Positions 4,093-30,162 of a DNA stretch of 30,162 bases are shown in pieces (the stretch's first letter is position 1; every line of letters begins with the position of its first letter). The position numbers were made by a program, and so were the translations under genes. The notes below the pieces were generated by a model that saw only the letters and a program-made list of their open reading frames with translations, was not told the DNA's origin and made no database searches. The DNA is from Spirochaetales bacterium. Its GTDB lineage: Bacteria; Spirochaetota; Spirochaetia; Treponematales; UBA12059. The stretch spans positions 1 through 30,162 of the forward strand of contig JAFGNN010000055.1 in assembly GCA_016926955.1 (NCBI GenBank), in the 5' to 3' direction.

Positions 4093-4103
4093 GGGAGGAT
4101 AAG

Positions 4104-5339: not shown

Positions 5340-5352
5340 TCGACGATACCGA

Positions 5353-5474: not shown

Positions 5475-5493
5475 TATTCTTCAAGGAGTTCAT

Positions 5494-6234
5494 ATGAAGC
5501 GTATCATTTTTACGGTGTTGGCGGCGGTGGCGGGGTTCGCGGCGTTCGCGCAAGCGGCGCCGACCGCGGCGGAAATATTGGCGAAGGTGGACGAGAACGA
5601 GAATTTCTCGTCCATCGAGTACGAGGGCCGCATGGAGCTCACGCTCGGCGGCAAGACCCGCGTCAAGACGATGAAGGCCGTGGCCGTCGGCGCGGACAAG
5701 GCGTACATCGAGTTCACCAACCCCGAGGACCGGGGCGTGCGCTACCTCAAGCTCGGCGACGAGCTCTGGATGTACTTCCCGAAGGAGGACGATACGGTCA
5801 AGATCTCCGGCCACCTGCTCCGCGAGGGCATGATGGGCTCGGACGTGTCGTACGAGGAAGCGCTCGAATCCGACAGCCTCGCCGATATTTACGACGCGGT
5901 CGTCAAGGGCCGCGAGGACTACGAGGGCAGGCCCGTCTGGGTGCTCGAACTCACGGCGAAGAAGAGCTCGGCCAGCTACGCGCGGCAGATCCTCCGCGTC
6001 GACGCCGAGCGCTTCGTGACGCTCTCGGCGGACCTGTACGCCAAGAGCGGCAAGTTGCTGAAGGAATCGCGCACCCTCGAAGTCAGGCTCATCGGATTGC
6101 GCTGGTACCCGGTCAAGGTCGAGCTCTCCGACAAGCTCCGCAAGGATTCCCGCACGAGCTTCGAGCTCGTGTCCATCAAGCTGGACGTCGCCGTGGATCC
6201 GAAGCGCTTCACGCTCTCGGAGCTGGGGAAATGA
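5494..6234 (+). CDS. LolA_like (PF17131-type) outer-membrane lipoprotein-sorting protein with a signal peptide (246 aa).
   Basis: It has the signal peptide MKRIIFTVLAAVAGFAAFAQA. The family-typical segment KLGDELWMYFPKEDDTVKISGHLLREGMMGSDVSYEEA matches the conserved LW.YLP...R(I/V)...MGSDF.YED core. RBS AAGGAG is at 5481-5486, and the ATG at 5494 lies inside the longer track ORF. Confidence 0.75.
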   Translation: MKRIIFTVLAAVAGFAAFAQAAPTAAEILAKVDENENFSSIEYEGRMELTLGGKTRVKTMKAVAVGADKAYIEFTNPEDRGVRYLKLGDELWMYFPKEDDTVKISGHLLREGMMGSDVSYEEALESDSLADIYDAVVKGREDYEGRPVWVLELTAKKSSASYARQILRVDAERFVTLSADLYAKSGKLLKESRTLEVRLIGLRWYPVKVELSDKLRKDSRTSFELVSIKLDVAVDPKRFTLSELGK

Positions 6235-7367
6235 AAGGCAACTCGGTCTCCGTCGCGGTTCTCGCGGCGGTCTTCGTCGTCGGCACCTTCCAGCTCGCTG
6301 CGCAATCCGGAGCGCCGGAGTTCGGCGGCGTTTTCTCCCGGAGCGACGCGGCCCTGTACGTTGCCGCCGGGGAAGTCGACTCAGGCGACTTCTCGTGGAC
6401 TGCGGCAAGCGCGCTCGAGCTCGCTCTCCGCGCGGGGGGCGATAGCGCGCGGGCCGAGGCCGCGTTCACGGCGACCGTGCTGAACGGCTCGGCGGCGGAG
6501 GCGATGATCGCGCTCGCGACCTCGATGTCGCTGCCGTCGGGTTCTCCTTTCGCCTCAGGCGGGGCGCTCGTCGTCCCGCTCGCGTCCGATCCGGCCTCCG
6601 TCCTGCTCCTCGAGCTCCGCTCGCTCCAGCTCAGGCTCGACCTGGGCGAGGCGCGGCTCCGCGCGGGCAGGCAGGTGGTCAATTTCGGGCGGGGCCAAGC
6701 CTTCAGCCCGGCGGACGTTTTCGCGCGGCGCGACCTTTCCGGGCTTTCCCCCGCGCGCGCGCCGGTGGACGCGCTCAGGCTTTCGGGCCCCTTCGGGCAG
6801 TTCGGCGGCTGGGACCTCGTGGCCGCGCCGCGCGCCGAAGCGGAGGACGGGACCTACGCGGCGCGCGCCTGGGCCTGGGCCTTCGGGGTGGATGGCGGCC
6901 TCATCGCGGGCCGCGACGGCGGACGCGGAGACTGGCTTGCCGCGGCGGACGTCCAGTTCGACCTCGGCGCCACCTTCCGCGGCGAGGTCCTGCTGCGGTA
7001 TTCAGATTCGGGGGACGCGCGCGTTTCGGCCATGGCCGGCCTCGACTGGTCGCTCGGCGACTTGCTCATGGGGGCCGAGTACTACCGGAACGGCGACGGC
7101 GCGGCGGGCGCGGTGCCGCTTTCGGGGGCTCCGGGCGCGGCTTCGGAACACTACCTTTTCGCGACGCTCGGCTGGCAAGCGGGCGATTTCGCGTCACTCT
7201 CCGCCAGCGCGCTCGCCGAGCTCGACGAAGGGCTCTGGGCGCCAGCCCTGGCCCTCACGGTAGACGCGACGCAGAGCGCCGACCTGGTCGTCGCCCTGCG
7301 GGGCCTCGCCGATTCTGGCGGCGTCGTATCGGCTGCCCTCGCGGCGACGCTCGAGCTTTCGTTCTGA
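6231..7367 (+). CDS. Putative outer-membrane beta-barrel protein (378 aa) with a signal peptide and a C-terminal Phe.
   Basis: The start overlaps the upstream stop (ATGA at 6231-6234). It has the signal MKGNSVSVAVLAAVFVVGTFQLAAQS, Gly/Ala/Ser-rich alternating segments and a terminal ...ATLELSF (an OMP-type C-terminal aromatic). No family was recognised. Confidence 0.55.
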   Translation: MKGNSVSVAVLAAVFVVGTFQLAAQSGAPEFGGVFSRSDAALYVAAGEVDSGDFSWTAASALELALRAGGDSARAEAAFTATVLNGSAAEAMIALATSMSLPSGSPFASGGALVVPLASDPASVLLLELRSLQLRLDLGEARLRAGRQVVNFGRGQAFSPADVFARRDLSGLSPARAPVDALRLSGPFGQFGGWDLVAAPRAEAEDGTYAARAWAWAFGVDGGLIAGRDGGRGDWLAAADVQFDLGATFRGEVLLRYSDSGDARVSAMAGLDWSLGDLLMGAEYYRNGDGAAGAVPLSGAPGAASEHYLFATLGWQAGDFASLSASALAELDEGLWAPALALTVDATQSADLVVALRGLADSGGVVSAALAATLELSF

Positions 7368-7856: not shown

Positions 7857-8476
7857 GCGTCCCCCCATTCCGCGAGCGCCTGTCCGCGGAGCTTCGCGCG
7901 GGCGCGCGCGAGCTTGCTCTTCACCGTGCCTTCGCGGAGGCCGAACGCGCGCGCCAGGTCGCCGAGCGAGGCGCCTTCCGCGTCGCGCAGGTAGACGAGC
8001 GAGCGCTCAGGTTCCGGCAAGCCCGCCAGCAGCGCCGCGACGCGCTCGCTCGCCTCGCGCCGCTCGAGCGCGGCCGCGGGATCCCCGCCGGAACCGGGCG
8101 GCACCCCGACGCCGGGGGCAGATGCGTCCCCGGCGAAGCGCGCCGCGCGCGCGGCCATGGCGCCGCGCCTGGCGGCCTTCCGGAGCTCGTCGAGGGCCGC
8201 CCGCCGCGCCACCGCGGCCATGAAGGTGGCGACGGCGGAGTCGCCCCGGAAGCGAGCGAGCGCGCCCACGAGGCGGACGCAGGCTTCCTGGACGGCGTCG
8301 TCCACCAGGAGCGGATCCCGGCGGGCGGCCGCCCCGAGCGCGACGAAGGCCGCGCGGCGGAGCAGGCCTTCGTGCCGCCCGACGAGGCACGCGAACGCCC
8401 GGGCGTCGCGCCCCTCCGCCCAGGCGGCCGCGAGCGCGGCGTCGTCGGCTGCCGGATCCGCCGCTTCTTCGCGCAC
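7853..8476 (-). CDS. RNA polymerase ECF-type sigma-70 factor (207 aa).
   Basis: The region-2-like segment is DDAVQEACVRLVGALARFRGDSAVATFMAAVARRAALDELRK and the region-4 HTH is LPEPERSLVYLRDAEGASLGDLARAFGLREGTVKSKLARARAKLR. Its GTG start overlaps the upstream gene's stop (TAGTG). Confidence 0.85.
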   Translation of the reverse strand: MREEAADPAADDAALAAAWAEGRDARAFACLVGRHEGLLRRAAFVALGAAARRDPLLVDDAVQEACVRLVGALARFRGDSAVATFMAAVARRAALDELRKAARRGAMAARAARFAGDASAPGVGVPPGSGGDPAAALERREASERVAALLAGLPEPERSLVYLRDAEGASLGDLARAFGLREGTVKSKLARARAKLRGQALAEWGDA

Positions 8477-9021
8477 TACTGGATGAGCCTCAGCACACCG
8501 GCGAGCACCCTGAGCTTTTCCGCATCGCCCGCGCGCTCGGCGAGCTCGCGTAGGTCGCCCGCCTTCGAGATGGCCGCCATGCCCCGCGCCAGGCGGTTCA
8601 GGACGCCCCAGCGCTCGGTCCCGAGCAGGGCGCGGATGGCCAGGCCCCGCTCGATCTGTACCATGCGGATGCGGTACTCGGCCTCGAGGCTGGCGCGCAC
8701 GGTCTTCTCGACCGCGGCCCGGTCCGGCTCGTCCTCGAGAAGGAGCCGCGCCAGGCGGGCCTGCAGTTCCCGGATTTCCGCGCGCGCGCGCTCGAGCTCC
8801 CTGGCGCCCTTGCCCGAAAGCTCCGCGATACGCGCGGCCTCCTCGTCGGTGAGCGCGAGCAGGCGGAAATCGCGGCGCGCCTCGGCGATGCCGTAGCCCG
8901 GGTCCCGGTACTGCGCCGGCACGGCGGCGGGTCCCGGCCCCTGGGCCGCGAGCAGGGCCGGCGCCGCGAGCAACACGGCGGCGACCATCATTCCCTTCAT
9001 ATTCTTTCCGTTCACATTCAT
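8476..9021 (-). CDS. Periplasmic Spy/CpxP-like (LTXXQ-type) helical protein, first gene of the ECF operon (~181 aa).
   Basis: It has the signal peptide MNVNGKNMKGMMVAAVLLAAPALLAAQ. Helical repeats LTDEEAARIAELSGKGARELERARAEIRELQARL resemble LTXXQ periplasmic chaperone/sensor motifs. GGAGG sits 9 nt upstream of the ATG at 9021; the alternative ATG at 9030 has no spacer. Confidence 0.45.
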   Translation of the reverse strand: MNVNGKNMKGMMVAAVLLAAPALLAAQGPGPAAVPAQYRDPGYGIAEARRDFRLLALTDEEAARIAELSGKGARELERARAEIRELQARLARLLLEDEPDRAAVEKTVRASLEAEYRIRMVQIERGLAIRALLGTERWGVLNRLARGMAAISKAGDLRELAERAGDAEKLRVLAGVLRLIQ

Positions 9022-9139
9022 GCCGTTCATCCTCCGCCCATTGGTCGCCGCGGACGCGCCCCGGGTTCCCTCAAAAAGCGCATATCCCCCACGCATTGTA
9101 GCGCGACGGCGGCGCGTCTGGAAATTCACGGGCCACCTG

Positions 9140-9148
9140 TGCCATAAT
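9140..9148 (+). promoter_or_regulatory. Candidate extended -10 element (TGcCATAAT) for ileS. It is followed by a GC hairpin (9155-9178) in the ~45-nt leader.
   Basis: This was read directly and no clear -35 was found. No T-box consensus is present. Confidence 0.3.
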
Positions 9149-9200
9149 CGCCCGAAGCGCGCCCCGCCCGGGGCGCTGTCCCGCATCCGGAGGAAGCGCC

Positions 9201-12200
9201 GTGTTCAAGCCCGTGGATCCCAAAGTGAACTTCCCGCAGATGGAAGAGGCCCTCGTCGAATTCTGGGAGCGCGAGCGCATCTTCAAGCGGAGCATCGAGC
9301 AGCGCGAGGGCAAGGACGAGTTCGTCTTCTACGACGGCCCTCCCTTCGCCACGGGCCTGCCCCACTTCGGCCACTTCGTCCCCGGCACCATCAAGGACAT
9401 CGTCCCGCGCTACAAGGCCATGAAGGGCTACAAGGTCGAACGCCGCTTCGGCTGGGACTGCCACGGCCTCCCGGTCGAGTACGAGATGGAGAAGGAGCTC
9501 GGCATCTCCGGCAAGCGCCAGATCGAGGACTTCGGCGTCGCGAAGTTCAACGAGTCCTGCCGCTCCATCGTACTCCGCTACACCAAGGAGTGGCGGCGCA
9601 TCATGACCCGCGCCGGCCGCTGGGTCGATTTCGACAACGACTACAAGACCATGGACCCCGACTACATGGAGTCCATCTGGTGGGTGGTCAAGGCGCTGTG
9701 GGACAAGGGCCTCGTGTACGAGGGCCACTACATCCTGCCCTACTGCCCGCGCTGCTCGACCGTGCTCTCGAACCACGAGCTCCAGCTCGGCGGCTACCGC
9801 GACGTCCACGACCCCGCCATCACCGTGCGCTTCAAGGTGAAGGCCGCCCCCCCGAAATTCCCGCTCGCGGACCTGGCCGACGGGCACACCTACGTGCTGG
9901 CCTGGACCACCACGCCCTGGACCCTGCCCTCCAATCTCGGCCTGACCGTCGGACCCGACATCGACTACGTCCTGGTCAAGGACGGGACCGAGCGCTACCT
10001 CCTCGCGGAGTCGCGGCTCGGCGCGTACTACAAGGAAACCGACACGCTCGACTTCGCCTGGAAGGGCAAGGGCTCCGAGCTTTCGATGCTCGAGTACGAA
10101 CCCCTCTTCGACTTCTTCGCCGACGCGCGCGAACAGGGCGCCTTCCGCGTCCGGACCGGCGACTTCGTCACCACCGAGGACGGCACCGGCGTCGTGCACA
10201 CCGCGCCCGGCTTCGGCGAGGACGACTACCGCGCGCTCAAGGACACGGGCATCCCCGTCATCGCGCCGCTCGACGGCGAGTGCCAGTTCACCGACGAGGT
10301 GCCCGACTGGAAGGGCTTGTTCGTCAAGGACGCCGACAAGCCGATCATGGAAAAGCTCAAGGTCGAGGGCAAGCTCGTCAGGCGCGAGCAGATCCTCCAC
10401 GCCTACCCGCACTGCTGGCGCTGCGGCAGCCCCCTCATCTACCGCGCCATCTCGAGCTGGTTCGTCAAGATCGACCCCGTGAAACCCATGATGCTGGACG
10501 CGAACTCGCGCGTGCGCTGGACGCCCGAGCACATCCGCGACGGCCGCTTCGGCAAGTGGCTCGAGAACGCGCGCGACTGGGCCATCAGCCGCAACCGCTA
10601 CTGGGGCAATCCGCTGCCCATCTGGAAGTGCGACTCCTGCGCCGAGACCGTGTGCGTCGGCAGCCGCGACGAGCTCGAGAAGCGCTCCGGCACCCGCCCC
10701 GACGACCTCCACAAGCACTTCGTCGACGAGATCACCTGGAAATGCTCCTGCGGCGGGACCATGAAGCGCATTCCCGAGGTGCTGGACTGCTGGTTCGAGT
10801 CCGGGTCCATGCCCTACGCCCAGGTGCACTACCCCTTCGAGAACAAGAAGCACTTCGAGGAGCACTTCCCCTCCGACTTCATCTGCGAAGGCCTCGACCA
10901 GACCCGCGGCTGGTTCTACACCCTGACCATCCTGGCGGCGGCCCTCTTCGACCGGCCGGCCTTCAAGGCCTGCGTGGTCAACGGCCTCGTGCTGGCCTCC
11001 GACGGCAAGAAGATGTCGAAGAGCCTCCGCAACTACACCGACCCCATGGTCGTCATGAACGAGTTCGGCGCCGACGCGCTCAGGCTCTTCCTCATGCGCT
11101 CCGCCGTGACGCGGGCCGACGACCTCTGCTACTCCGACGAGGGCGTGCGCGAGGTGCTCAAGGGCATCATCCTGCCCGTCTGGAACGCGTACAGCTTCTT
11201 CGTCACCTACGCCAACATCGACAGGGCCGAGCCCGGCGAGGCGCCGACCGACGCCGCGAACCCGCTCGACCGCTGGATACTCTCCACCTGCGAAGCCATG
11301 GTCCAGGCGACCGGCGCGGCGCTCGAAGCCTACGACATGCAGGCCGCCATCGAGCCCATCGTCGACTACATCGACGCGCTCAACAACTGGTACATCCGCC
11401 GCTCGCGGCGCCGTTTCTGGCGTTCGGAGAACGACGGCGACAAGGCCGAGGCCTACGCCACCCTCTACCGCGTGCTCCGCCGCCTGGCCGAGACCGCGGC
11501 GCCCATCATGCCCTTCGTCAGCGAGGAGATCTGGCGCAACCTGCGCCGCCCCGACGAGGCCGAATCCGTCCACCTCCGCGACTACCCCGAGTACGACGCG
11601 CGCTACCGCGACGAGGCGCTCGAAGCCAAGATGGCCATCGCGCGCAAGGCGGTCGCCATGGGCCGCGCGCTCCGCGCCCAGTACGAGCTGAAGGCGCGCC
11701 AACCACTCGCGCGCGCGATCCTGGTCACCCGGGATGCCAAGGAGCGCGCGGTGCTCCGCGAGATGGAAGAGCTGCTCCGCGACGAGCTCAACGTCAAGGA
11801 GCTGGCGTTCCGCGAGAACGAGGAGGACCTCGTCTCGTACTCCGCGAAGGCCAACTTCCGCACGCTCGGCAAGGAGCTCGGCAAGGACATGAAGGAGGCG
11901 GCCGCCCTCATCGAGAAGCTCGACCACCGCGCCGCCGCCACCCTGGTCGAAGGCGGTCGGCTCGAACTCACGGTGGCCGGCCGTCCCGTCGAGCTCGACC
12001 TTTCCAAGGTCGAGATCCGGCGGCAGGAAAAGGAAGGGCTCCACGTCCTCAACGAGGGCACGCTGACCGTCGGCCTCGACGTCGAGATAACGCAGGAGCT
12101 GCTCGACGAGGGCTACGCGCGCGACCTGGTGCGCGGCCTCCAGAACCTGCGCAAGGAAGCCGGCCTCGAGGTTTCAGACCGCGTTCGTATCGGCCTCTTC

Positions 12201-12353
12201 GGCCCCGCCGCGCTCAAGGCCGCCTGGGAGCGCTTCGCCGACTACGTCGCCGGCGAGACCCTGGCCGTCGCCGTGGAATGGAAGGAAGCAAGCGGCATGA
12301 CGGAGATCGAAGCCGGCGAAATCGCCTGGCTCGCCGCCGTCGAAAAGGCCTGA
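9201..12353 (+). CDS. ileS: Isoleucine--tRNA ligase, type 2 (eukaryote-like bacterial form), 1050 aa.
   Basis: It has the HIGH motif PHFGHFVPG, the KMSKS motif KKMSKSLRNY, an editing domain and a type-2 C-terminal extension. The GTG start at 9201 has GGAGG at 9189-9193. Confidence 0.95.
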   Translation: MFKPVDPKVNFPQMEEALVEFWERERIFKRSIEQREGKDEFVFYDGPPFATGLPHFGHFVPGTIKDIVPRYKAMKGYKVERRFGWDCHGLPVEYEMEKELGISGKRQIEDFGVAKFNESCRSIVLRYTKEWRRIMTRAGRWVDFDNDYKTMDPDYMESIWWVVKALWDKGLVYEGHYILPYCPRCSTVLSNHELQLGGYRDVHDPAITVRFKVKAAPPKFPLADLADGHTYVLAWTTTPWTLPSNLGLTVGPDIDYVLVKDGTERYLLAESRLGAYYKETDTLDFAWKGKGSELSMLEYEPLFDFFADAREQGAFRVRTGDFVTTEDGTGVVHTAPGFGEDDYRALKDTGIPVIAPLDGECQFTDEVPDWKGLFVKDADKPIMEKLKVEGKLVRREQILHAYPHCWRCGSPLIYRAISSWFVKIDPVKPMMLDANSRVRWTPEHIRDGRFGKWLENARDWAISRNRYWGNPLPIWKCDSCAETVCVGSRDELEKRSGTRPDDLHKHFVDEITWKCSCGGTMKRIPEVLDCWFESGSMPYAQVHYPFENKKHFEEHFPSDFICEGLDQTRGWFYTLTILAAALFDRPAFKACVVNGLVLASDGKKMSKSLRNYTDPMVVMNEFGADALRLFLMRSAVTRADDLCYSDEGVREVLKGIILPVWNAYSFFVTYANIDRAEPGEAPTDAANPLDRWILSTCEAMVQATGAALEAYDMQAAIEPIVDYIDALNNWYIRRSRRRFWRSENDGDKAEAYATLYRVLRRLAETAAPIMPFVSEEIWRNLRRPDEAESVHLRDYPEYDARYRDEALEAKMAIARKAVAMGRALRAQYELKARQPLARAILVTRDAKERAVLREMEELLRDELNVKELAFRENEEDLVSYSAKANFRTLGKELGKDMKEAAALIEKLDHRAAATLVEGGRLELTVAGRPVELDLSKVEIRRQEKEGLHVLNEGTLTVGLDVEITQELLDEGYARDLVRGLQNLRKEAGLEVSDRVRIGLFGPAALKAAWERFADYVAGETLAVAVEWKEASGMTEIEAGEIAWLAAVEKA

Positions 12354-12364
12354 GAAGCAGGAAT

Positions 12365-12475
12365 CCAACGCCGAGACGCCGAGAACACCGAGACAAGAAT
12401 GAAAAAGGGGAAGGGTCATGACGACCCTTCCTTTTTTCTTCGTCCCGATCTCGGCGTCTCGGCGTCTCGGCGTTT
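12365..12475. repeat. Extended ~110-nt palindrome. A 28-bp inverted repeat (AACGCCGAGACGCCGAGA... / ...TCTCGGCGTCTCGGCGTT, with the CCGAGAC unit iterated) flanks the ileS terminator hairpin.
   Basis: The left arm is 12365-12393 and the right arm 12448-12475. The first 18 nt of the arms are perfectly complementary. Confidence 0.55.
12403..12440 (+). terminator. Rho-independent terminator of ileS. An A-tract precedes a GGGGAAGGGTC/GACCCTTCC stem with a TTTTTTCTT tail, so it is potentially bidirectional.
   Basis: It has a perfect 9-10 bp GC-rich stem, a 5-nt loop and a U-tract. Confidence 0.8.
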
Positions 12476-24289: not shown

Positions 24290-24363
24290 GTGTCGCTCCA
24301 ATCTAGCAGAAGCCCCCGAAGGTGTCAAACCGCCGCCCGGCCTGCCCCACCCCATGAAAAGGC

Positions 24364-24539
24364 GAACCACGGAGGCACGGCAGAGCCTTCCCAATGAGAA
24401 CCACGGAGGCACGGAGCTGGGGAGAAAAGAGGGAGCAAGAAAAGGTCGAGGTAAAAGGTGGGAAGGTCGACTCCTTCCCCACAACTTTCCTCCCTCCTCC
24501 CTCCTCTCTCTTCCCTCTTCCCTCCGTGCCTCCGTGGTC
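24364..24539. repeat. Second member of the GAACCACGGAGGCACGGAG-terminated palindromic element family. Terminal 19-mers sit at 24398-24416 and inverted at 24522-24539, with an extra direct partial copy at 24364-24380. It has a central GGAAGGTCGAC/TCCTTCC and a 38-nt pure polypyrimidine tract (24488-24525). It lies in the ptsI upstream region.
   Basis: This was read directly. The arms are purine-rich and pyrimidine-rich as in the element at 5353-5474. Confidence 0.65.
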
Positions 24540-24547
24540 TTCTTTGA

Positions 24548-25000
24548 CTAGTTGTCCCTTGCGATGTCGGTGGCGTAGAGCTCTTCGAAGCGGGCGCGGT
24601 GGCGCGACTCCTCGGCGGCGAGCCGCTCGAAGACCTCCGCGAGCTCGCCCGAACCCGCGGCCTCCGCGAAGGCCTTGTAGAGGCGCTCCGAGCGGTCCTC
24701 CTTGCGGATGCCCGCGCGGAGCACGTCCTGGTAGTCCGGATCCGGGCCGAGCTCCCTGTCCTCGACCAGATCGGAGAAATCGGCGCGGGATGCGAAGGCG
24801 GCGTTCCAGGTCGGCGCGCCTTTGACCTTGACCGCCTCGAGGGCGCGCGCGTGGCCCTCCTCCATGGCGGCGAGCTCGGCGAGCATGCCCTGCTGCGCGG
24901 CGAAATCCGAACGGCCGAGCAGGTCCTGGTAGAAGCGGATGGCCTCGCGCTCGCGGCCTATGGCTAAGTCGATCGCCTCGGAGAAGCTCCGGAAATCCAT
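24548..25000 (-). CDS. Rubrerythrin-like/ferritin-like diiron four-helix-bundle protein (150 aa), last gene of the complex-I-like operon.
   Basis: It has two E-x-x-H motifs (AAMEEGHARALE; AAEESRHRARFEEL) plus upstream Glu residues. Its ATG at 25000 is 2 nt after the fusion gene's stop. Confidence 0.65.
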   Translation of the reverse strand: MDFRSFSEAIDLAIGREREAIRFYQDLLGRSDFAAQQGMLAELAAMEEGHARALEAVKVKGAPTWNAAFASRADFSDLVEDRELGPDPDYQDVLRAGIRKEDRSERLYKAFAEAAGSGELAEVFERLAAEESRHRARFEELYATDIARDN

Positions 25001-25002
25001 GC

Positions 25003-26781
25003 TCACGCTCCCTTGCGCAACGCGCGGTCGATGGCCAGGGCGGCCCGGTGGCCGTCCGCGATGGCGCTGATGGCGTCCTTCTTTTCGTTGACGAGGTCGC
25101 CGCCGGCCCACACCTTCGGGTCGCCCGTGCGGCCCGTCGCGTCGACCACCGGCTTGTAGCGCTTGATCTCGAGGCCGTCCGCGGCGTCGGCGCCGATGAA
25201 CGAAAGGTCCGGTCCCTGGCCGATGGCCGCCACGATGGTGTCGTAGCGGACCTCGCGCACGGTCTCGCCCATGAGTTCCGGGAGCGGGCGCTTGCCCGGC
25301 CCCTGGTCGACCATGCGGGCCTGGCCCCACGACACGAGCGCCGAGCCGTCCGGACCGAGCTTGACGCCCGTCGGGATGGCCTGCACGACGATGGCAACGC
25401 CCTCGGCCTTCGACTCCACGATCTCCTCGGGGTCGGCGGGCATGTCGACCTCGCGGCGCCGGTAGAGGATGTCCACCTCGGCGCCGAGGCGCCGCGCGGT
25501 GCGGGCGCAGTCCATGGCGACGTTGCCGCCGCCGACCACCGCCACCTTCTTCCCCAGTTTCGGATCCTCGCCGCGGGTGACCTGGGCCAGCACCTCGACG
25601 CCGTCGCGAACGCAGGGCAGGTCGTCGCCGCTCACGTCTAGCTTGTACGCCGCGGGCAGGCCCGTGGAGACGTAGACCGCGTCATGCTCGCGCTTCAGCT
25701 TCGCGTAGTCGAAATCCTTGCCCACGGCGACGGAAGTCTCGACCTTGACGCCGAGGCTTTCGATGTAGCCTATGTCCTTGTCGAGCGCCTCGTAGGGCAG
25801 GCGGTACTCGGGGATGCCGTAGCAGAGCATGCCCCCGGCCTTGGGCGCGGCTTCGAGCACGCTCACCTCGTGGCCGGCCATGGCCAGGTAGTAGGCCGCG
25901 GCCAGGCCGCCGGGGCCCGCGCCGACGACGGCCACCTTCTTTCCTGAAGGCGCGTCCTTGCGCGGCAGTTCCTTGGCGTAATCGGAGAGCTCCACCTGGT
26001 CGGCGATATAGCGCTTGAGCCAACGGATGGCCAGCGGATCGCCCCGGACGCCGATGGAGCAGGCTTCCTCGCAGACGTGGGTGCAGACGCGGCCGCAGGC
26101 CTCGGGGAAGGGGTTGGTCTCGTAGAGGAGGCGCAATCCCTCGTCGATGTTCCCCTCGCGCACGGCCCGGATGTAGCCGGGAATGTCCATGTGCGCGGGG
26201 CAGGAGGCGACGCAGAGGCCGCATTCGACGCAGCGGTCGGCTTCCTTCTCCGCGAGCTCGCGCGAGTAGCCCTTCACGAGCTCGCGGAAGCTCGCGACGC
26301 CCTCGGCGTGCGGGAGCTCGGGCATCTCCACCCGCTCCCTGTCGAGGATGGAGTAGCCCTCGGCGCGCTTGTAGCCGAGCTCGGCCGAGTCCCAGGGTTT
26401 TTTTTCGACGCCGGGCACGAAGCGGAAGTCCTCGGGGTCGGACGAGATCCAGACGTACTCGTTGCTCATGGTGAGCGAGCCCGAGGGGCAGATGTCGACG
26501 CAGAGCGCGCACCAGCAGCAGCGGCCGTAGTCGATGCGGGGCCGGAGCCCCGAGTCGCCCGCGGACGGCGAGCGGCCCGCGACCTCCACGAGGTCGATGG
26601 CGCCGTTCTGGCAGATGGCCTCGCAGCTGCCGCAGCCGACGCAAGTCTCCGCGTCGTTCTTGTGGAAGCCGCGGTAGCGCGGGGCGCCGGGGCGCTCGTC
26701 GATGGGCTTCTTCACGGTGAAGGGCTTTTCGAACGCGCGCTTCCAGACCGCGAACGGGGCGATGAAATCCTTGACGTCCAT
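25003..26781 (-). CDS. Fusion protein (592 aa). An N-terminal NuoI/EchF-like 2x[4Fe-4S] ferredoxin domain is joined to a complete GltD/NfnB/SudA-type FAD/NAD(P)H oxidoreductase.
   Basis: The N-terminus has CVGCGSCEAICQ and CCWCALCVDICPSG. The C-terminal part has the GltD N-terminal cluster motifs CVECGLCVASCPAHMDIPGYI and CGRVCTHVCEEAC, an FAD site GKKVAVVGAGPGGLAAAYYLAMAGHEV and a NAD(P)H site GKKVAVVGGGNVAMDCARTARRLGAEV. Confidence 0.8.
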   Translation of the reverse strand: MDVKDFIAPFAVWKRAFEKPFTVKKPIDERPGAPRYRGFHKNDAETCVGCGSCEAICQNGAIDLVEVAGRSPSAGDSGLRPRIDYGRCCWCALCVDICPSGSLTMSNEYVWISSDPEDFRFVPGVEKKPWDSAELGYKRAEGYSILDRERVEMPELPHAEGVASFRELVKGYSRELAEKEADRCVECGLCVASCPAHMDIPGYIRAVREGNIDEGLRLLYETNPFPEACGRVCTHVCEEACSIGVRGDPLAIRWLKRYIADQVELSDYAKELPRKDAPSGKKVAVVGAGPGGLAAAYYLAMAGHEVSVLEAAPKAGGMLCYGIPEYRLPYEALDKDIGYIESLGVKVETSVAVGKDFDYAKLKREHDAVYVSTGLPAAYKLDVSGDDLPCVRDGVEVLAQVTRGEDPKLGKKVAVVGGGNVAMDCARTARRLGAEVDILYRRREVDMPADPEEIVESKAEGVAIVVQAIPTGVKLGPDGSALVSWGQARMVDQGPGKRPLPELMGETVREVRYDTIVAAIGQGPDLSFIGADAADGLEIKRYKPVVDATGRTGDPKVWAGGDLVNEKKDAISAIADGHRAALAIDRALRKGA

Positions 26782-26787
26782 ATCGCG

Positions 26788-27957
26788 CTACCTCTCGATC
26801 TCGGGCGGATAGGTGTGGAGGCTGACCATGAGGCCGGCCAGGTCGGCGAGGTTCTGGCCCTTGGCCAGGGTCTCCATGACCGACACCGCGTGCGTGTAGC
26901 TCGGGCCGCGCACGACGACGCGGCGCGGCTTGTCGGAGCCGTCGGACACCACGTAGAAGCCGTACTCGCCGCGCGTGCACTCGCTCTTCACGTAGGTCTC
27001 GCCCGCGGGGATCTTCCAGTGGAGCGGGTTCGGCAGGGCCGCCTTGAACTCGCCGCCTTTCGGCATGCGCGCGAGCATCTGGCGGATCAGGTCGATGGCC
27101 TGGTACATCTCGCCGAGGCGGACCAGGGCGCGGTCGTAGGCGTCGGAGCCCTCGGCCGTGACGTAGTCGAAATCGAGCTTGTCGTACACGAGGTAGGGCT
27201 GGTCCTTGCGGATGTCGCGGCGGAAGCCGGCGGCGCGGGCGTTCGGGCCCGTGATGCCGAAGCGGTCGATCCAGTCCTTCGGGATGACGCCGAGCCCCTT
27301 CGCGCGCAGCTTGAACACCGCGTTGTGGAACATGACGAGCTCGATGTCGTCGAGGTTCTTCTCGATGGTGTCCATGACCTCGAGGGCATGGGCCGCCCAA
27401 CCCTCGGGCAGGTCGGAGCGCACGCCGCCGGGGATGATGTACATGTGGTAGATGCGTCCGCCCGAGAGCTCCTCGAAGAGGTCGAGGACGTAGTCGCGCA
27501 TGGTGGCCGACCACTGGATGATGGTGCCGTGCCCGAAGGCGCCGGCCTGGCCGCCGATCCACATGAGGTAGCTGGCGAGCCGGATCATCTCGAGCGTCAG
27601 GTTGCGGAGCCACTTGGCCTTCTCCGGCACCTCGACGCCCGCGAGCTCCTCGATGGCCGCGGCGTAGCAGTACTCGTTGAAGTCCGGCTCGGGCACCGCG
27701 ATGCGGCAGACGAGGGGGAAGTTCTGCATCCAGAGCCGGCGCTCCATGAGCTTCTCGAAGCCGCGGTGCAGGTAGCCCACGTGGGTCTTGCAGTCGTAGA
27801 CGGTGTCGCCCGCGATGGCCAGCTCGAGCGACATGTTGCCCGTGATGCCGGGGTGCTGGGGCCCCTGCCACATCTTGAGGAACTTGCCGGAGGCGAAGTC
27901 CACCGGCTCCTTCGGGTCGTAGGGGGGCGGGAAGAATCCCTTGACGCCTTCGAACAT
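26788..27957 (-). CDS. NuoD/EchE-like large subunit (389 aa) lacking all [NiFe] cysteine ligands, i.e. Ehr/complex-I-like and not a hydrogenase.
   Basis: WQGPQHPGITGNMSLEL...DTVYDCKTHVGYLHRGFEKLME aligns with the NuoD GPQHPAAHGVLRL...IGYHHRGAEK. The N-terminal RxCGxC and C-terminal DPCxxC are absent, and the C-terminus ...SLHTYPPEIER has no Cys. The ATG at 27957 overlaps the nuoC-like stop (ATGA). Confidence 0.85.
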   Translation of the reverse strand: MFEGVKGFFPPPYDPKEPVDFASGKFLKMWQGPQHPGITGNMSLELAIAGDTVYDCKTHVGYLHRGFEKLMERRLWMQNFPLVCRIAVPEPDFNEYCYAAAIEELAGVEVPEKAKWLRNLTLEMIRLASYLMWIGGQAGAFGHGTIIQWSATMRDYVLDLFEELSGGRIYHMYIIPGGVRSDLPEGWAAHALEVMDTIEKNLDDIELVMFHNAVFKLRAKGLGVIPKDWIDRFGITGPNARAAGFRRDIRKDQPYLVYDKLDFDYVTAEGSDAYDRALVRLGEMYQAIDLIRQMLARMPKGGEFKAALPNPLHWKIPAGETYVKSECTRGEYGFYVVSDGSDKPRRVVVRGPSYTHAVSVMETLAKGQNLADLAGLMVSLHTYPPEIER

Positions 27958-28487
27958 CAGAGGGCCTCCGGGTAGAGTTTCTCTTTCATGTGGGTCGCGG
28001 GGTCCTTGGTGGAACGGCCCGGGCGGGTCGGGAAGGTCCGCTCGCTGTATTCCCTCGTGTCGAACTCGCGGCGCATCGGCGGAATGTCGATCCAGCCTTC
28101 GAGCACGAAGCTTTCGTCGACCCGCGGGCTGCCCGGGAAGTCGATGCCGAAGAGCTCCTTCAGTTCGCGCTGGTAGGTCCACATCTGCTCCCAGAGCAGG
28201 TGGCAGGACTCCATGGCCGCGTTCTCGCGCCCGATGCGGCACTTGACCGCCAGCGAGTGGTTTTCCGCGTGGTTGTGCAGCATGTAGGTGAGGACGAAGA
28301 CGCCCTCCTCGATCAGGTCGGTCGCCGTGACGAAGGAAAGGTGGGCATAGCCGTGGCGGTCGCGGAGGCGCGCGAGCAGCTCCGGCACGTCCTTCGCGTC
28401 CGCCTCGAGCGTCGCCAGGTCGGCGCGTTTTTCCACGAGGGGGCCGACCTCGAAGCGCTCGGCGATATCGTTCGCTATGGTTCGCAT
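27957..28487 (-). CDS. NuoC/EchD-like 30-kDa-type subunit (176 aa).
   Basis: RHGYAHLSFVTATDLIEEGVFVLTYMLHNHAE matches the NuoC core. The ATG is at 28487, and the first 90 aa of the track ORF are artefact. Confidence 0.75.
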   Translation of the reverse strand: MRTIANDIAERFEVGPLVEKRADLATLEADAKDVPELLARLRDRHGYAHLSFVTATDLIEEGVFVLTYMLHNHAENHSLAVKCRIGRENAAMESCHLLWEQMWTYQRELKELFGIDFPGSPRVDESFVLEGWIDIPPMRREFDTREYSERTFPTRPGRSTKDPATHMKEKLYPEAL

Positions 28488-28498
28488 CGCTCCCGCTC

Positions 28499-29191
28499 CT
28501 AGTAGTTGTAGTCCGGCATGTTCCAGTCGTGGATGACCTTCTTCTGGTTCGCCTTGTACCATTCGAAGTTCTCCGCGTACTTGACCGCGCCTTCGCATTC
28601 TCCGCGGCGGATCTTCCGCTGGAGCTCCTTGAAGCCGGCCAGCAGCGCCTCGGGGCGCGGCATGCAGCCGGCGATGTACACGTCCACCGGGATGTAGTGC
28701 TCGATGGCGTTGATGGTGTTGTAGCTGTCCCAGTACATGCCGCCGTTGATGGTGCACGAGCCCAGGGCCACCACGAACTTCGGCCCCATCATCTGCTCGT
28801 AGGAGCGGACGATGCGCTTCAGGGTCTTGACCGAGGCGTAGCCGCCGATGACGAAGACCGAGGACTGGCGGGGCGTGGGACGGCCCTGGATGCCGTAGCG
28901 GTACATGTCGAAACGGCTCGTCATGAGGGGGCGGAGCTCGATGGCGCCGCAGCCCGTGCCGAAGCCGAGTATCCAGAGGCTCTTCGAGCGGGCCCAGTTG
29001 AGGAAGTTCTCGAGTATGCCCTTGTAGGGGCCGGAAGCTGTCGGGTAGGCGTCGCAGAACCAGGGCTTCTCCTCTTCGGGCAGGCCGTCGTTCGCGAGGA
29101 CCATGGGCTTGCCGAGGGGACCCGGCCTTCCGGCCGGCTTCAGCGCGTGGTCGGGATCGGCCGGGGGGCGCGTGAATTTCATGTCGCTCAT
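28499..29191 (-). CDS. NuoB/EchC-like small subunit (230 aa) with an N-terminal ~60-aa extension. Only three of the four canonical cluster-N2 cysteines are present.
   Basis: It has GFGTGCGAIE (the canonical CC is GC here), GSCTINGG and IAGCMPRPE. AGGAG lies 7 nt upstream of the ATG at 29191. Confidence 0.8.
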   Translation of the reverse strand: MSDMKFTRPPADPDHALKPAGRPGPLGKPMVLANDGLPEEEKPWFCDAYPTASGPYKGILENFLNWARSKSLWILGFGTGCGAIELRPLMTSRFDMYRYGIQGRPTPRQSSVFVIGGYASVKTLKRIVRSYEQMMGPKFVVALGSCTINGGMYWDSYNTINAIEHYIPVDVYIAGCMPRPEALLAGFKELQRKIRRGECEGAVKYAENFEWYKANQKKVIHDWNMPDYNY

Positions 29192-29201
29192 GTCGATGCT
29201 C

Positions 29202-30116
29202 CTAGAAAGCCGTGTACAGCACCGCGCCGATGCCGATCAGGGTCGGCACGCCGAGGAAGAAGCGGATGGCCTGGTCGGTGCGGAAGCGCGGGAAGGCCTG
29301 CCCGACGAAGATGTTGACGAAGTAGATGAGGAAGGTCTTCGCCACCATCACGGGCACGTTGGTCGCGCCGCCGAAGAACAGGTTCATGTAGAGGACCAGC
29401 TTGGCGCCGTTGAAGACGGCCCGGTTGGTCTGCAGCATGCCGAGCAGGTTCGACTGGTACTCGGTGGGCGGGCCGATCGGGATCTCCTGCGGCGCGATGA
29501 CGACGCTGAAGGGGTTGTGTCCCGACATGCCGAGGAAGGCGATCATGGCCGCCACCACCGCGAGCGGGTTGGTGAACAGGGTCCAGTTCATGAAGCCGCC
29601 CTGCTGCGCCATGACGATCTTCGTGATGTCGAGCGTGCCGTACTGCACCGCGATGGAGATGATGGAGAGGGCGAAGGGCACCTCGAAGGCCGTCATCTGC
29701 GCCAGTCCCCGGCTGACGCCGAGGGCGCTGTACGGGTGGCCGCCCTCGGAGGCGCCGAGCGCCATGCCGAGCTGGCCGAAGAAGATGAAGTACATCACGA
29801 GGAGGAGGTCGCCCGACATCGAGAAGTTCCGGAACACCACCGAGCCGAGGACGGCCGGCACGAACATGTAGGTGCCGACGCCGCCCGCAAGCCGGAAGAC
29901 CGGCCCGAGCCAGAACATGATGCCGTGCGAGATCGAGTTGCGCTTGCCCGACGACTTGACGATGTCGATGATGGGCTGCCACACGGGCTGGCCCACGCGT
30001 CCCTGCACCTTCGCGCTGATCCGGGCCATGCTCCCGATCAGGAGCAGGCCGTACACCGTGATGACGGCGAGCGACACGAAGGCGTACGCGATGCGGAGGG
30101 GAATGCTCGGTTCCAT
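29202..30116 (-). CDS. NuoH/EchB/HycD-like polytopic membrane subunit (304 aa).
   Basis: ARISAKVQGRVGQPVWQPIIDIVKSSGKRNS matches the NuoH-family loop (Q.R.GP...QP..D..K...KE). There are multiple TM helices. Its ATG overlaps the upstream gene's TGA by 1 nt. Confidence 0.8.
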   Translation of the reverse strand: MEPSIPLRIAYAFVSLAVITVYGLLLIGSMARISAKVQGRVGQPVWQPIIDIVKSSGKRNSISHGIMFWLGPVFRLAGGVGTYMFVPAVLGSVVFRNFSMSGDLLLVMYFIFFGQLGMALGASEGGHPYSALGVSRGLAQMTAFEVPFALSIISIAVQYGTLDITKIVMAQQGGFMNWTLFTNPLAVVAAMIAFLGMSGHNPFSVVIAPQEIPIGPPTEYQSNLLGMLQTNRAVFNGAKLVLYMNLFFGGATNVPVMVAKTFLIYFVNIFVGQAFPRFRTDQAIRFFLGVPTLIGIGAVLYTAF

Positions 30117-30162
30117 CAGCGGACCCCCAGGAAGAGATAGAGTATGCCGACGTAGAGCACCA
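30116..30162 (-). CDS. 3' end of a hydrophobic upstream gene (...VLYVGILYLFLGVR*), presumably a NuoL/EchA-like antiporter-type membrane subunit. Its 5' end is truncated by the window.
   Basis: The frame was derived by hand. The stop overlaps the nuoH-like ATG (TGATG). Only 15 codons are visible, so the family assignment is positional (Ech gene order). Confidence 0.35.
   Translation of the reverse strand, partial: VLYVGILYLFLGVR

What the first reader, a model, noticed from the sequence alone, without database searches (positions are those of the whole stretch)
24548..30162. Ech-ordered complex-I-like (Ehr-type) membrane complex with no [NiFe] site, no canonical quinone His, and a GltD-type NAD(P)H module
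Six co-directional, translationally coupled genes on the minus strand reproduce the six-gene Ech hydrogenase layout (A-B-C-D-E-F): a NuoL-like C-terminus, then NuoH-like, NuoB-like, NuoC-like, NuoD-like and a NuoI-like domain. The large subunit lacks every hydrogenase metal ligand (no RxCGxC, no DPCxxC). In the N-terminal beta-sheet where complex I has the quinone-binding His (GPQHPAAHGVLR), this protein reads GPQHPGITGNMS. It is therefore neither a group-4 hydrogenase nor a canonical quinone reductase. This is the defining property of Ehr (energy-converting hydrogenase-related) complexes, whose substrate is unknown. Uniquely here, the EchF/NuoI-like ferredoxin subunit is fused to a full GltD/NfnB/SudA-type flavoprotein, and a rubrerythrin-like diiron protein is coupled at the 3' end. 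This suggests a membrane, ion-translocating module fed directly by NAD(P)H and possibly acting on an oxygen/peroxide-type or other non-quinone acceptor. As far as I can tell, this subunit combination is not a described complex.
Basis: partly seen in the sequence, partly recalled or inferred. Interest (0 to 1): 0.85.

Follow-up and report, generated by a model that had tools for sequence, protein, structure and literature searches.

The report
Bacterial MBS/Mbx-type respiratory complex, NADPH-linked
The genes are real, but they are the last half of an already described 13-gene bacterial "Mbx-like" (MBS-type, complex-I-related) membrane complex whose electron-input subunit is fused to an NADPH-binding flavoprotein; it is a new spirochaete member of a widespread family whose reaction has never been measured.

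Summary
Six tightly packed minus-strand genes at 24548-30116, plus the last 47 nt of a seventh, encode NuoH-, NuoB-, NuoC- and NuoD-like proteins, a NuoI+GltD fusion and a rubredoxin-less diiron protein. The large subunit has no [NiFe] ligands and no quinone His/Tyr.

The interpretation needs correcting in three ways.

1. The "six-gene Ech layout" is an artefact of the window edge. A 95%-identical spirochaete contig and 51 of 52 other loci carry a 12-gene operon, mrpE-F-G-mbhD-mbhE-nuoK-(MbsH+H')-M-J-K-L-N. That is the Pyrococcus mbs/mbx order.

2. Every subunit's best solved relative is P. furiosus MBS (6U8Y). The NuoB-like subunit keeps exactly the three Cys that bind MBS's catalytic, site-differentiated [4Fe-4S] cluster.

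3. The fusion is not unique. At least 587 species genomes encode it, and an NCBIfam model covers it end to end. Degli Esposti (2015) already described mbx-like operons with a gltD-type subunit that often end in rubrerythrin.

The most likely function is ion-translocating electron transfer between NADP(H) and sulfane sulfur. An ion-pumping ferredoxin:NADP+ oxidoreductase is the main rival. Neither has been tested biochemically. I class it as a new member of a known kind, of modest interest.

The parts
30116..30162 (-). Last 47 nt (C-terminus and stop codon) of the fused MbsH+MbsH' antiporter-like (NuoL/M/N-type) subunit. The rest of the gene, and six Mrp-type genes upstream of it, lie outside the window.
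   Evidence: Frame and TGATG overlap. The window aligns at 95% nt identity to L005 6620-12232, where the gene is 3550-6666 and encodes 1038 aa. Its N-terminal half best matches 6U8Y_H and its C-terminal half 6U8Y_X.
29202..30116 (-). MbsM-like (NuoH-like) membrane anchor of the peripheral arm, 304 aa.
   Evidence: PF00146, E=7e-46. Best PDB hit is 6U8Y_M at 166 bits; the next hit scores 57 bits. The equivalents of MbsM loop residues E203 and E211 are conserved in that alignment.
28499..29191 (-). MbsJ-like (NuoB-like) subunit carrying the proximal [4Fe-4S] cluster, 230 aa. The only conserved cluster ligands are C81, C146 and C176. It has an N-terminal extension with a conserved F-C46-D-A-x-P motif.
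   Evidence: PF01058. Best PDB hit is 6U8Y_J at 220 bits and 56% identity; the next hit scores 137 bits. The loop FGTGCGAIE aligns without gaps to FCTGCGGIE of MbsJ, with the non-ligating C25 replaced by Gly. The single-Cys loop is found in 66 of 67 family members. C46 is Cys in 85% of members.
27957..28487 (-). MbsK-like (NuoC-like) subunit, 176 aa.
   Evidence: PF00329, E=5e-21. Best PDB hit is 6U8Y_K.
26788..27957 (-). MbsL-like (NuoD-like) large subunit, 389 aa. It has no NiFe ligands and no equivalents of Nqo4 H38 or Y87. The vestigial MbsL residues C85 and C385 are Ala and Tyr here, and there is a family-specific conserved C84.
   Evidence: PF00346. Best PDB hit is 6U8Y_L at 321 bits and 44% identity, against 235 bits for Nqo4 and 154 for MbhL. 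Motif survey of 76 homologues.
25003..26781 (-). Fusion of an MbsN/NuoI-like 2x[4Fe-4S] domain (about residues 5-114) with a GltD/NfnB/SudA-type flavoprotein (about 147-590). The flavoprotein part has a 2x[4Fe-4S] domain, an FAD site (GAGPGG) and an NADPH-type site (GGGNVAMD...YRRR).
   Evidence: Pfam Fer4 families, Fer4_20 and Pyr_redox_2. NCBIfam NF010590/PRK13984 matches end to end, residues 3-590 against profile positions 8-608 of 611. PDB: the N-terminal domain best matches 6U8Y_N; the rest best matches NfnB-type chains 9N5U_A and 5JCA_L. 17 Cys are invariant across 82 homologues.
24548..25000 (-). Rubrerythrin-like (erythrin-type) four-helix diiron protein without a rubredoxin domain, 150 aa. 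It is an accessory, non-universal last gene of the operon.
   Evidence: PF02915, E=2e-14. Ligands E17, E47xxH50, E101 and E131xxH134 are at least 90% conserved. Weak PDB similarity to TM1526, symerythrin and sulerythrin. Present directly downstream of the fusion gene at 31 of 75 loci.

Best explanation
**What it is.** The window holds the 3' half of an operon for a bacterial MBS/Mbx-type complex. This is an Mrp-antiporter-linked, complex-I-like membrane machine. It comprises MbsA-B-C-D-E-G, a fused MbsH+H', and M-J-K-L-N. Its electron-input subunit MbsN is fused to an NADPH-binding GltD/NfnB-type iron-sulfur flavoprotein.

**Proposed mechanism.**
1. NADPH reduces the FAD.
2. Electrons pass along four [4Fe-4S] clusters in the fusion subunit to the proximal [4Fe-4S] cluster of the MbsJ-like subunit.
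3. That cluster has only three Cys ligands, and its open iron reductively cleaves sulfane sulfur (polysulfide or organic polysulfane) in the chamber formed by L, J and M, as in Pyrococcus MBS.
4. The redox step drives H+/Na+ movement through the two fused antiporter-like pumps and the Mrp module. The reaction could run backwards on an ion gradient.
5. Ferredoxin may be a second donor.
6. The diiron protein is an accessory, probably protecting or repairing the oxidant-labile catalytic cluster or the flavoprotein.

**Shown here.** Gene content and order, subunit homologies, cofactor-binding motifs, the three-Cys pattern and its conservation, and the wide distribution.

**Inferred.** NADPH as donor, the sulfur substrate, ion coupling, the direction of the reaction and the role of the diiron protein.
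For: **Operon.**
- A 95%-identical contig (L005) supplies MnhE, MrpF, MnhG, MbhD, MbhE/MnhB, a NuoK-like gene and a 1038-aa MbsH+H' fusion upstream of the window's genes.
- All 12 genes are present, in the same order as a rule, in 51 of 52 loci that have at least 9 kb of upstream sequence.

**Homology to MBS.**
- 6U8Y (MBS) is the best solved match for M, J, K, L and the N-domain, by wide margins for J, L and M.

**Active-site features.**
- In MBS the proximal cluster is bound only by MbsJ C28, C93 and C123, and it is the catalytic site. C25, C85 and C385 are dispensable.
- The window's J subunit keeps exactly those three Cys, has Gly at the C25 position and has the same loop length. This holds in 66 of 67 homologues.
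- The C85 and C385 positions vary (Ala or Cys; Tyr or Cys) across the family, as expected for dispensable residues.
- Nqo4 H38 and Y87 are absent, as in MBS.

**NADPH module.**
- The GltD part has complete FAD and NADPH-type motifs and eight invariant Cys. It aligns to the NADPH-binding NfnI large subunit.

**Physiology and ecology.**
- Sulfur raises T. maritima mbxA transcription 4.4-fold.
- The family occurs in sulfur-cycling Gammaproteobacteria, including Thiosymbion, Thioalkalivibrio and Chromatiales.
- A putative Mrp-Mbx complex is reported in the Riftia symbiont; whether it carries the GltD fusion was not checked.

**Energetics.** Textbook midpoint potentials are about -320 mV for NADPH and about -270 mV for S0/HS-. 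That gives roughly 10 kJ per 2 e-, similar to the 12 kJ quoted for MBH, which does conserve energy.
Against: - No enzyme of the GltD-fused type has been assayed. Both the donor and the acceptor are inferred by homology.
- The driving force from NADPH to polysulfide is small for a machine that keeps two pump modules. The MBS authors link two pumps to the 42 kJ available from ferredoxin.
- Published models for Thermotogae still assume ferredoxin as donor, with either NAD(P)+ or sulfur as acceptor.
- No sulfur-metabolism genes lie in the window or are conserved in the flanks.
- Conserved extra Cys residues (J C46, L C84) might supply a fourth cluster ligand or imply different chemistry.
- In Mesotoga, mbx expression was low during growth on thiosulfate.
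Confidence: 0.5

Rival explanations
1. It is an ion-pumping ferredoxin:NADP+ oxidoreductase, the classical 'Mbx' model. Reduced ferredoxin donates to the Fe-S chain, the GltD flavin reduces NADP+, and the roughly 130 mV drop is conserved as an ion gradient. In reverse, an ion gradient would drive ferredoxin reduction by NADPH.
For: - This is the function proposed in the literature for the gltD-substituted mbx-like operons and for Mesotoga Mbx.
- The driving force fits a two-pump machine better.
- An NfnA/NfnB (SudAB-type) gene pair follows the operon in about 10 spirochaete loci, tying it to NADPH/ferredoxin balancing.
- In the Riftia symbiont the putative Mrp-Mbx is co-expressed with the ferredoxin-demanding rTCA cycle and a V-type ATPase.
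Against: - In complex I, MBH and MBS, energy coupling is tied to chemistry at the proximal cluster in the L/J/M chamber. A protein substrate such as ferredoxin cannot reach that chamber, so electrons passing from ferredoxin to FAD would bypass the coupling site.
- The family conserves the MBS-type three-Cys catalytic cluster in 66 of 67 members. That would be unnecessary for simple electron transfer.
- The same model for P. furiosus Mbx was replaced once polysulfide reduction was measured.
Confidence: 0.25
2. It is an 'Ehr'-type complex acting on a different small-molecule acceptor in the chamber, such as an organic disulfide or persulfide, thiosulfate, or an unusual quinone-like carrier. The family-specific Cys residues (J C46, L C84) would take part in the chemistry.
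For: - Conserved Cys residues absent from P. furiosus MBS lie in parts that, by alignment, sit near the chamber and the proximal cluster.
- At least one Cys in the [C]RI[C]VPEPD motif is always kept.
- The substrates of Ehr complexes are unknown.
- T. maritima mbxA also responds to thiosulfate.
Against: - J C46 is Ser in about 15% of members.
- The quinone head-group ligands are absent.
- The strongest homology, and the active-site pattern, are those of MBS, for which polysulfide reduction has been measured.
Confidence: 0.17
3. It is an NADPH-driven oxygen or peroxide reductase, with the rubrerythrin-like protein as the terminal catalytic subunit.
For: - The diiron gene starts 2 nt after the fusion gene, and its six ligands are conserved.
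- NCBIfam lists other GltD-type proteins fused to ferritin-like domains (NF009413).
Against: - The diiron gene is present in only 31 of 75 loci and in none of the Cloacimonadota loci, so it is not a core subunit.
- It lacks the rubredoxin domain of true rubrerythrins.
- Nothing places it at the coupling site.
Confidence: 0.04
4. It is an Ech-type group-4 [NiFe] hydrogenase or a simplified NADH:quinone complex I.
For: The order of the six visible genes resembles echA-F. The Pfam and NCBIfam names are all 'Nuo'.
Against: - No L1 or L2 Cys motifs, and no H38 or Y87.
- The N2-type CC motif is absent.
- Relatives carry the 12-gene Mrp-linked operon rather than six genes.
- MbhL scores 154 bits and HycE 97 bits, against 321 bits for MbsL.
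Confidence: 0.01

Closest known systems
[quoted passage not shown]
   Same: - Same gene order, A-B-C-D-E-G-H-H'-M-J-K-L-N.
- Best solved homologue of every subunit (J 56% identity, L 44%).
- The same three-Cys proximal-cluster motif and loop length.
- No NiFe site and no quinone His/Tyr.
- Two antiporter-like pumps plus an Mrp module.
   Different: - MbsN is fused to a roughly 450-aa NADPH-type GltD/NfnB flavoprotein that adds two more [4Fe-4S] clusters and FAD.
- MbsH and MbsH' are fused into one 1038-aa protein.
- MbsJ C25, MbsL C85 and MbsL C385 are replaced by Gly, Ala and Tyr.
- New conserved Cys residues appear at J C46 and L C84.
- An optional diiron gene follows.
- The host is a bacterium and the relatives are mostly from non-thermal habitats (the window's own source was not determined).
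Bacterial 'mbx-like' operons (Thermotoga, Magnetococcus and other proteobacteria; Degli Esposti 2015, PMC4758237) and T. maritima MBX (PMC9431562)
   Same: As described in print: an mrp-linked mbx operon in which NuoI is replaced by, or joined to, a gltD-type NAD(P)H flavoprotein, and which often ends with rubrerythrin. T. maritima mbx is induced by sulfur.
   Different: This instance is from an uncultured, high-GC spirochaete. I did not verify direct sequence orthology to the Thermotoga genes. No member of the group has been characterised biochemically.
[quoted passage not shown]
   Same: Complex-I/group-4-hydrogenase-like modules whose large subunit lacks NiFe ligands. The order of the six visible genes resembles echA-F.
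   Different: The full operon has 12 genes with an Mrp module. It also has NuoC- and NuoI-like subunits, a specific MBS-type three-Cys cluster and a flavoprotein input. 'Ehr' is a catch-all label and not a functional family.
NfnB / SudA / GltD iron-sulfur flavoproteins (e.g. P. furiosus NfnI-L, PDB 5JCA)
   Same: A 2x[4Fe-4S] N-terminal domain, FAD and NADPH Rossmann domains, and the YRR motif after GGGN(V/T)AMD.
   Different: It is fused to a NuoI-type ferredoxin domain and has no NfnA/SudB partner in the operon, so electron bifurcation is not expected. All eight Cys of the cluster domain are conserved.

Membership tests
MBS/Mbx-type Mrp-linked respiratory complex | Operon of roughly 13 genes in the order mbsA-B-C-D-E-G-H-H'-M-J-K-L-N, combining an Mrp antiporter module with a NuoH/B/C/D/I-like module | tested here: met
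   The window shows H'(end)-M-J-K-L-N. The 95%-identical L005 and 51 of 52 loci show the whole set. H and H' are fused.
MBS/Mbx-type Mrp-linked respiratory complex | Subunits are closest to MBS subunits and not to complex I, MBH or FHL | tested here: met
   6U8Y chains are the top PDB hits. L: 321 bits against 235 (Nqo4) and 154 (MbhL). J: 220 against 137. M: 166 against 57. K and the N-domain also match 6U8Y best.
MBS/Mbx-type Mrp-linked respiratory complex | Proximal [4Fe-4S] cluster with only three Cys ligands (MbsJ C28, C93, C123) on a shortened loop | tested here: met
   C81, C146 and C176 are conserved 100%. The loop aligns to MbsJ without gaps, and the C25 position is Gly. This is a sequence-level test only. 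A fourth ligand from J C46 or L C84 cannot be excluded.
MBS/Mbx-type Mrp-linked respiratory complex | Large subunit lacks a NiFe site and the Nqo4 H38/Y87 equivalents, and retains vestigial C85 and C385 | tested here: inconclusive
   The NiFe ligands and H38/Y87 are absent, so that part is met. C85 and C385 are Ala and Tyr in the window and vary across the family. In MBS these two Cys are dispensable.
MBS/Mbx-type Mrp-linked respiratory complex | Stand-alone MbsN that accepts electrons from ferredoxin | tested here: not met
   The MbsN-like domain is fused to a GltD/NfnB-type NADPH flavoprotein. Use of ferredoxin cannot be tested here.
MBS/Mbx-type Mrp-linked respiratory complex | Polysulfide/DMTS reductase activity coupled to an ion gradient | not testable with these tools
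   The only indirect evidence is that sulfur induces T. maritima mbxA.
Group 4 [NiFe] hydrogenase (Ech) | L1 motif RxCGxCxxxH and L2 motif DPCxxCxx(H/R) in the large subunit | tested here: not met
   The aligned positions read CRIAVPEPD and SLHTYPPEIER.
Group 4 [NiFe] hydrogenase (Ech) | Six-gene echABCDEF operon | tested here: not met
   The six-gene appearance comes from the window edge. Relatives carry seven more genes upstream.
Respiratory complex I (Nuo) | Quinone head-group ligands (Nqo4 H38, Y87), the tandem CC of NuoB for cluster N2, and a NuoEFG input module | tested here: not met
   H38 is Thr and Y87 is Val. The J loop has a single Cys. No NuoE/F/G-like gene is in the operon.
[quoted passage not shown] | Group-4-hydrogenase/complex-I-like gene cluster whose large subunit lacks the NiFe-binding residues | tested here: met
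   The definition is as quoted. The original paper (Marreiros 2013) is not in the library, so finer criteria were not checked.
GltD/NfnB/SudA iron-sulfur flavoprotein | Fer4_20 domain with two Cys clusters, an FAD site (GxGxxG) and an NADPH site (GGGNxAMD...YRR) | tested here: met
   Pfam PF14691 and PF07992. C184/187/190/194/229/233/237/241, G287-G292, G417-N420 and Y440-R443 are invariant. It aligns to 5JCA_L. Actual cofactor binding was not tested.
Rubrerythrin | Diiron four-helix bundle plus a C-terminal rubredoxin Cys4 domain | tested here: not met
   The diiron ligands are present. There is no rubredoxin domain and no Cys; the protein is 150 aa. It is therefore 'erythrin-like' and not a true rubrerythrin.

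The most novel reading that the evidence does not exclude
The GltD-fused bacterial MBS-type complexes are a distinct enzyme that has never been characterised. They would be a reversible, Na+/H+-translocating NADPH:sulfane-sulfur oxidoreductase. Fermenters would use it to dump NADPH electrons on sulfur while conserving energy. Sulfur-storing chemolithotrophs would use it to respire stored sulfur or to make NADPH from reduced sulfur at the expense of the ion gradient. The family-specific Cys residues (J C46, L C84) would assist persulfide handling.
Probability: 0.35. Interest if true: 0.6.

Novelty: new member of a known kind. Interest (0 to 1): 0.3.

Why it matters
MBS is held to be the evolutionary step between membrane-bound hydrogenase and complex I. 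So far it is known biochemically only from hyperthermophilic archaea, with ferredoxin as donor.

The family seen here occurs in at least 587 bacterial species across Spirochaetota, Cloacimonadota, Bacteroidota, Chlorobiota, Marinimicrobia and sulfur-oxidising Gammaproteobacteria. It keeps the MBS catalytic signature but has a built-in NADPH module, much as complex I acquired its NADH module.

Measuring whether it reduces sulfur with NADPH or pumps ions as a ferredoxin:NADP+ oxidoreductase would settle an old ambiguity about 'Mbx'. It would also affect how energy and redox budgets are modelled for many anaerobes and symbionts. As a genome observation, however, the architecture is already in the literature.

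Tried and rejected
- **Exact-sequence look-up of the window's fusion protein.** It is not on record. I used the 97%-identical P0001 and then L005 instead.
- **Primary papers.** Marreiros 2013 (Ehr) and Wu 2018 (MBS biochemistry) are not held, so the Ehr criteria are second-hand.
- **T. maritima locus tags.** A literature search for TM1205-TM1217 found nothing relevant. Orthology to the Thermotoga fusion therefore rests on Degli Esposti's description and was not tested by alignment.
- **Conserved flanking genes.** All-against-all clustering of 1278 flank ORFs found no sulfur-metabolism gene. No flanking family occurs in more than 10 loci; the recurring ones are NfnAB, ArsR, CBS and TetR.
- **The rest of the window.** It gave no functional context: SPFH, FtsX/MacB permeases, a DtxR-type repressor, CstA, an ArsA-like ATPase, an M18 peptidase, MerR, Der and PtsI. 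There are no tRNA genes.
- **Structure prediction.** I considered AlphaFold for the fusion or the diiron protein and rejected it. The tool returns no coordinates and cannot model the heterocomplex or its cofactors, so it could not answer the docking or ligand questions.
- **MbsM charged axis.** Only two of the five residues (E203, E211) are conserved in the pairwise alignment. I did not treat this as decisive.

Full report
- NuoL-like end, 30116-30162, with a TGATG overlap onto the next gene.
- NuoH-like, 29202-30116.
- NuoB-like, 28499-29191.
- NuoC-like, 27957-28487.
- NuoD-like, 26788-27957, overlapping the NuoC-like gene by 1 nt.
- A 592-aa NuoI+GltD fusion, 25003-26781, after a 6-nt spacer.
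- A 150-aa rubrerythrin-like protein, 24548-25000, after a 2-nt spacer.

Pfam and NCBIfam confirm each assignment at E-values from 1e-14 to 1e-203. The beta1-beta2 loop is GPQHPGITGNMS where Thermus Nqo4 has GPQHPSTHGVLR, so H38 is Thr. The RMDY87 segment of Nqo4 is RIAV here. The C-terminus is SLHTYPPEIER. No hydrogenase RxCGxC or DPCxxC motif exists.

**2. What the window hides.** The cluster is cut by the window edge.
- A contig from 'Spirochaetes bacterium QR_Bin.15' (L005) is 95% identical at the nucleotide level across 24550-30162. Upstream it continues with MnhE, MrpF, MnhG, MbhD, MbhE/MnhB and a NuoK-like gene. A 1038-aa protein follows, whose N-terminal half best matches MbsH and whose C-terminal half best matches MbsH' of PDB 6U8Y.
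- Oceanispirochaeta sp. M2 (L003) and a 73%-identical metagenomic bin (L004) show the same set of genes.
Of the 80 loci fetched, 52 have at least 9 kb of upstream sequence, and 51 of those contain all twelve genes, in the same order as a rule.

This is the mbsA-B-C-D-E-G-H-H'-M-J-K-L-N order of the Pyrococcus furiosus mbx/mbs operon. It is not the six-gene ech operon. The resemblance to Ech arises because H'-M-J-K-L-N happens to read NuoL-H-B-C-D-I.

**3. Which family?** For every subunit the best solved relative is P. furiosus MBS (6U8Y).
- L: 321 bits and 44% identity, against 235 bits for Nqo4, 154 for MbhL and 97 for HycE.
- J: 220 bits and 56% identity, against 137 bits for the next hit.
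- M: 166 bits against 57.
- K and the N-terminal domain of the fusion also match MBS best.

The MBS structure paper shows that the proximal [4Fe-4S] cluster is bound by only three Cys of MbsJ (C28, C93, C123). A shortened loop keeps C25 away from the cluster. The open iron is the site of polysulfide reduction. C25A and C85A/C385A mutants keep activity. Nqo4 H38 and Y87 are absent.

The window's J subunit reads FGTGCGAIE against FCTGCGGIE of MbsJ, without a gap. It therefore keeps C28, C93 and C123 (its own C81, C146 and C176) and has Gly at the C25 position. Of 67 family members, 66 have this single-Cys loop. In the L subunit the C85 and C385 positions are Ala and Tyr here, and vary between Ala/Cys and Tyr/Cys across 76 homologues. 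That is the pattern expected for residues shown to be dispensable. By sequence, then, the family conserves what MBS catalysis needs and has lost what it does not need.

**4. The fusion subunit.** Residues 5-114 form an MbsN/NuoI-type 2x[4Fe-4S] domain with nine invariant Cys. Residues from about 147 to 590 form a complete GltD/NfnB/SudA-type flavoprotein. That part has eight invariant Cys in the Fer4_20 domain, a GAGPGG FAD site, and GGGNVAMD followed by YRRR. It aligns along its length to the NADPH-binding large subunit of P. furiosus NfnI. No NfnA/SudB partner is in the operon, so plain NADPH-to-Fe-S electron transfer, as in glutamate synthase, is more likely than bifurcation. This last point is an inference.

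The architecture is not unique. NCBIfam NF010590 (PRK13984, 'putative oxidoreductase') matches residues 3-590 against profile positions 8-608 of 611. Thousands of full-length homologues of 590-600 aa exist.

**5. The diiron protein.** It keeps E17, E47xxH50, E101 and E131xxH134. It has no rubredoxin domain and only weak similarity to TM1526, symerythrin and sulerythrin. It sits directly after the fusion gene in 31 of 75 loci and in none of the Cloacimonadota loci. It is therefore an accessory and not a core subunit. A protective or repair role for the oxidant-labile three-Cys cluster is plausible but unproven. The MBS cluster loses its unique iron on oxidation.

**6. What is already known.**
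- T. maritima has a 13-subunit MBX whose mbxA rises 4.4-fold with sulfur.
- Mesotoga Mbx is modelled as a ferredoxin:NADP oxidoreductase.
- A putative Mrp-Mbx complex is reported in the Riftia symbiont, co-expressed with the rTCA cycle.
- 'Ehr' is used loosely for hydrogenase-like complexes without NiFe ligands, and some authors include Mbx under it.

**7. How it most likely works.** In complex I, MBH and MBS, the coupling of redox chemistry to ion movement is tied to the proximal cluster and the chamber formed by L, J and M. I take that as the guide. The conserved three-Cys cluster then argues for a small-molecule substrate in the chamber, and sulfane sulfur is the only one with experimental precedent.

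The fused flavoprotein gives an NADPH entry (or exit) at the far end of a five-cluster chain. Using textbook midpoint potentials, NADPH to polysulfide yields about 10 kJ per 2 e-. That is close to the 12 kJ quoted for MBH and far below the 42 kJ for ferredoxin-driven MBS. This is feasible but thin for a two-pump machine, and it is the main weakness of the model.

The chief rival is the older idea of an ion-pumping ferredoxin:NADP+ oxidoreductase. Its energetics are better. It gains some support from the NfnAB genes that follow the operon in about ten spirochaete loci and from the rTCA co-expression in the Riftia symbiont. It leaves the conserved catalytic-type cluster and the coupling site unexplained.

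My estimates are about 0.9 that this is an MBS/Mbx-type complex, about 0.5 for NADP(H)-linked sulfane-sulfur chemistry, about 0.25 for ferredoxin:NADP+, and about 0.17 for another chamber substrate. A peroxide or oxygen reductase built around the diiron protein is unlikely.

**8. Unexplained details.** The bacterial family has conserved Cys residues that P. furiosus MBS lacks.
- J C46 lies in an N-terminal extension, in the motif F-C-D-A-x-P. It is Cys in 85% of members and Ser in the rest.
- L C84 lies three residues before the C85 position and is Cys in 93% of members. The few loci without it keep Cys at both the C85 and C385 positions.

These residues could provide a fourth ligand, carry persulfide or be incidental. 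A structure is needed to tell.

**9. Verdict.** The feature is real and well delimited. The positive framing (Ech layout, unique, undescribed, oxygen-linked) is not. It is a new spirochaete member of a known, widespread and biochemically uncharacterised kind of complex. Interest is modest (0.3). The open question worth testing is the physiological reaction of the NADPH-linked MBS type.

Noticed in passing
window 5356-5370, 5458-5472, 24366-24380, 24400-24414, 24524-24538: A 15-nt motif, ACCACGGAGGCACGG, occurs five times at 0-1 mismatch, against 0.15 expected by chance. The copies form inverted pairs about 100 nt apart in two intergenic regions. One pair has 25-nt arms that are 88% complementary, and it starts right after the stop codon of the diiron gene, before ptsI. 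It may be a REP- or MITE-like element or a large terminator structure.
   Followed up: partly
L013, L018, L024, L036, L044, L050, L062, L065, L069 (about 100-2700 nt downstream of the fusion gene): In about ten spirochaete loci the operon is followed by an NfnA/SudB-type gene (NF004862, 411 bits) and an NfnB/SudA-type gene (TIGR01316, 629 bits). This suggests a link to NADPH/ferredoxin balancing. The pair is absent from the window, where ptsI follows instead.
   Followed up: partly
window 28499-29191 (residue C46) and 26788-27957 (residue C84); family alignments: Two conserved Cys residues are absent from P. furiosus MBS. One is J C46 in an N-terminal F-C-D-A-x-P motif (85% Cys, otherwise Ser). 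The other is L C84 in VCRI[A/C]VPEPD (93% Cys). The members lacking C84 keep Cys at both the C85 and C385 equivalents.
   Followed up: partly
L005 3550-6666; L004 3650-6724; L003 3546-6134 plus 6195-6635: MbsH and MbsH' are fused into one protein of about 1030 aa in the window's lineage. In Oceanispirochaeta the same region is split into proteins of 862 aa and 146 aa.
   Followed up: partly
NCBIfam NF009413 (PRK12775), seen: A curated family exists for a trifunctional protein combining NfnA-like, GltD-like and ferritin-like domains. Diiron or ferritin-like domains therefore associate repeatedly with GltD-type flavoproteins, which may bear on the role of the diiron protein here.
   Followed up: no
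window 9020-12421 (+) and 9126-12044 (-): Very long overlapping ORFs (1133 aa and 972 aa) have no Pfam match. The neighbouring 8001-9000 stretch reaches 77% GC.
   Followed up: no
window 24300-24328 (-): A near-consensus sigma-70-like promoter (TTGACA, 17-nt spacer, TAGATT, with an extended TG) lies just upstream of the likely ptsI start. It indicates that ptsI is transcribed separately from the mbx-like operon.
   Followed up: no
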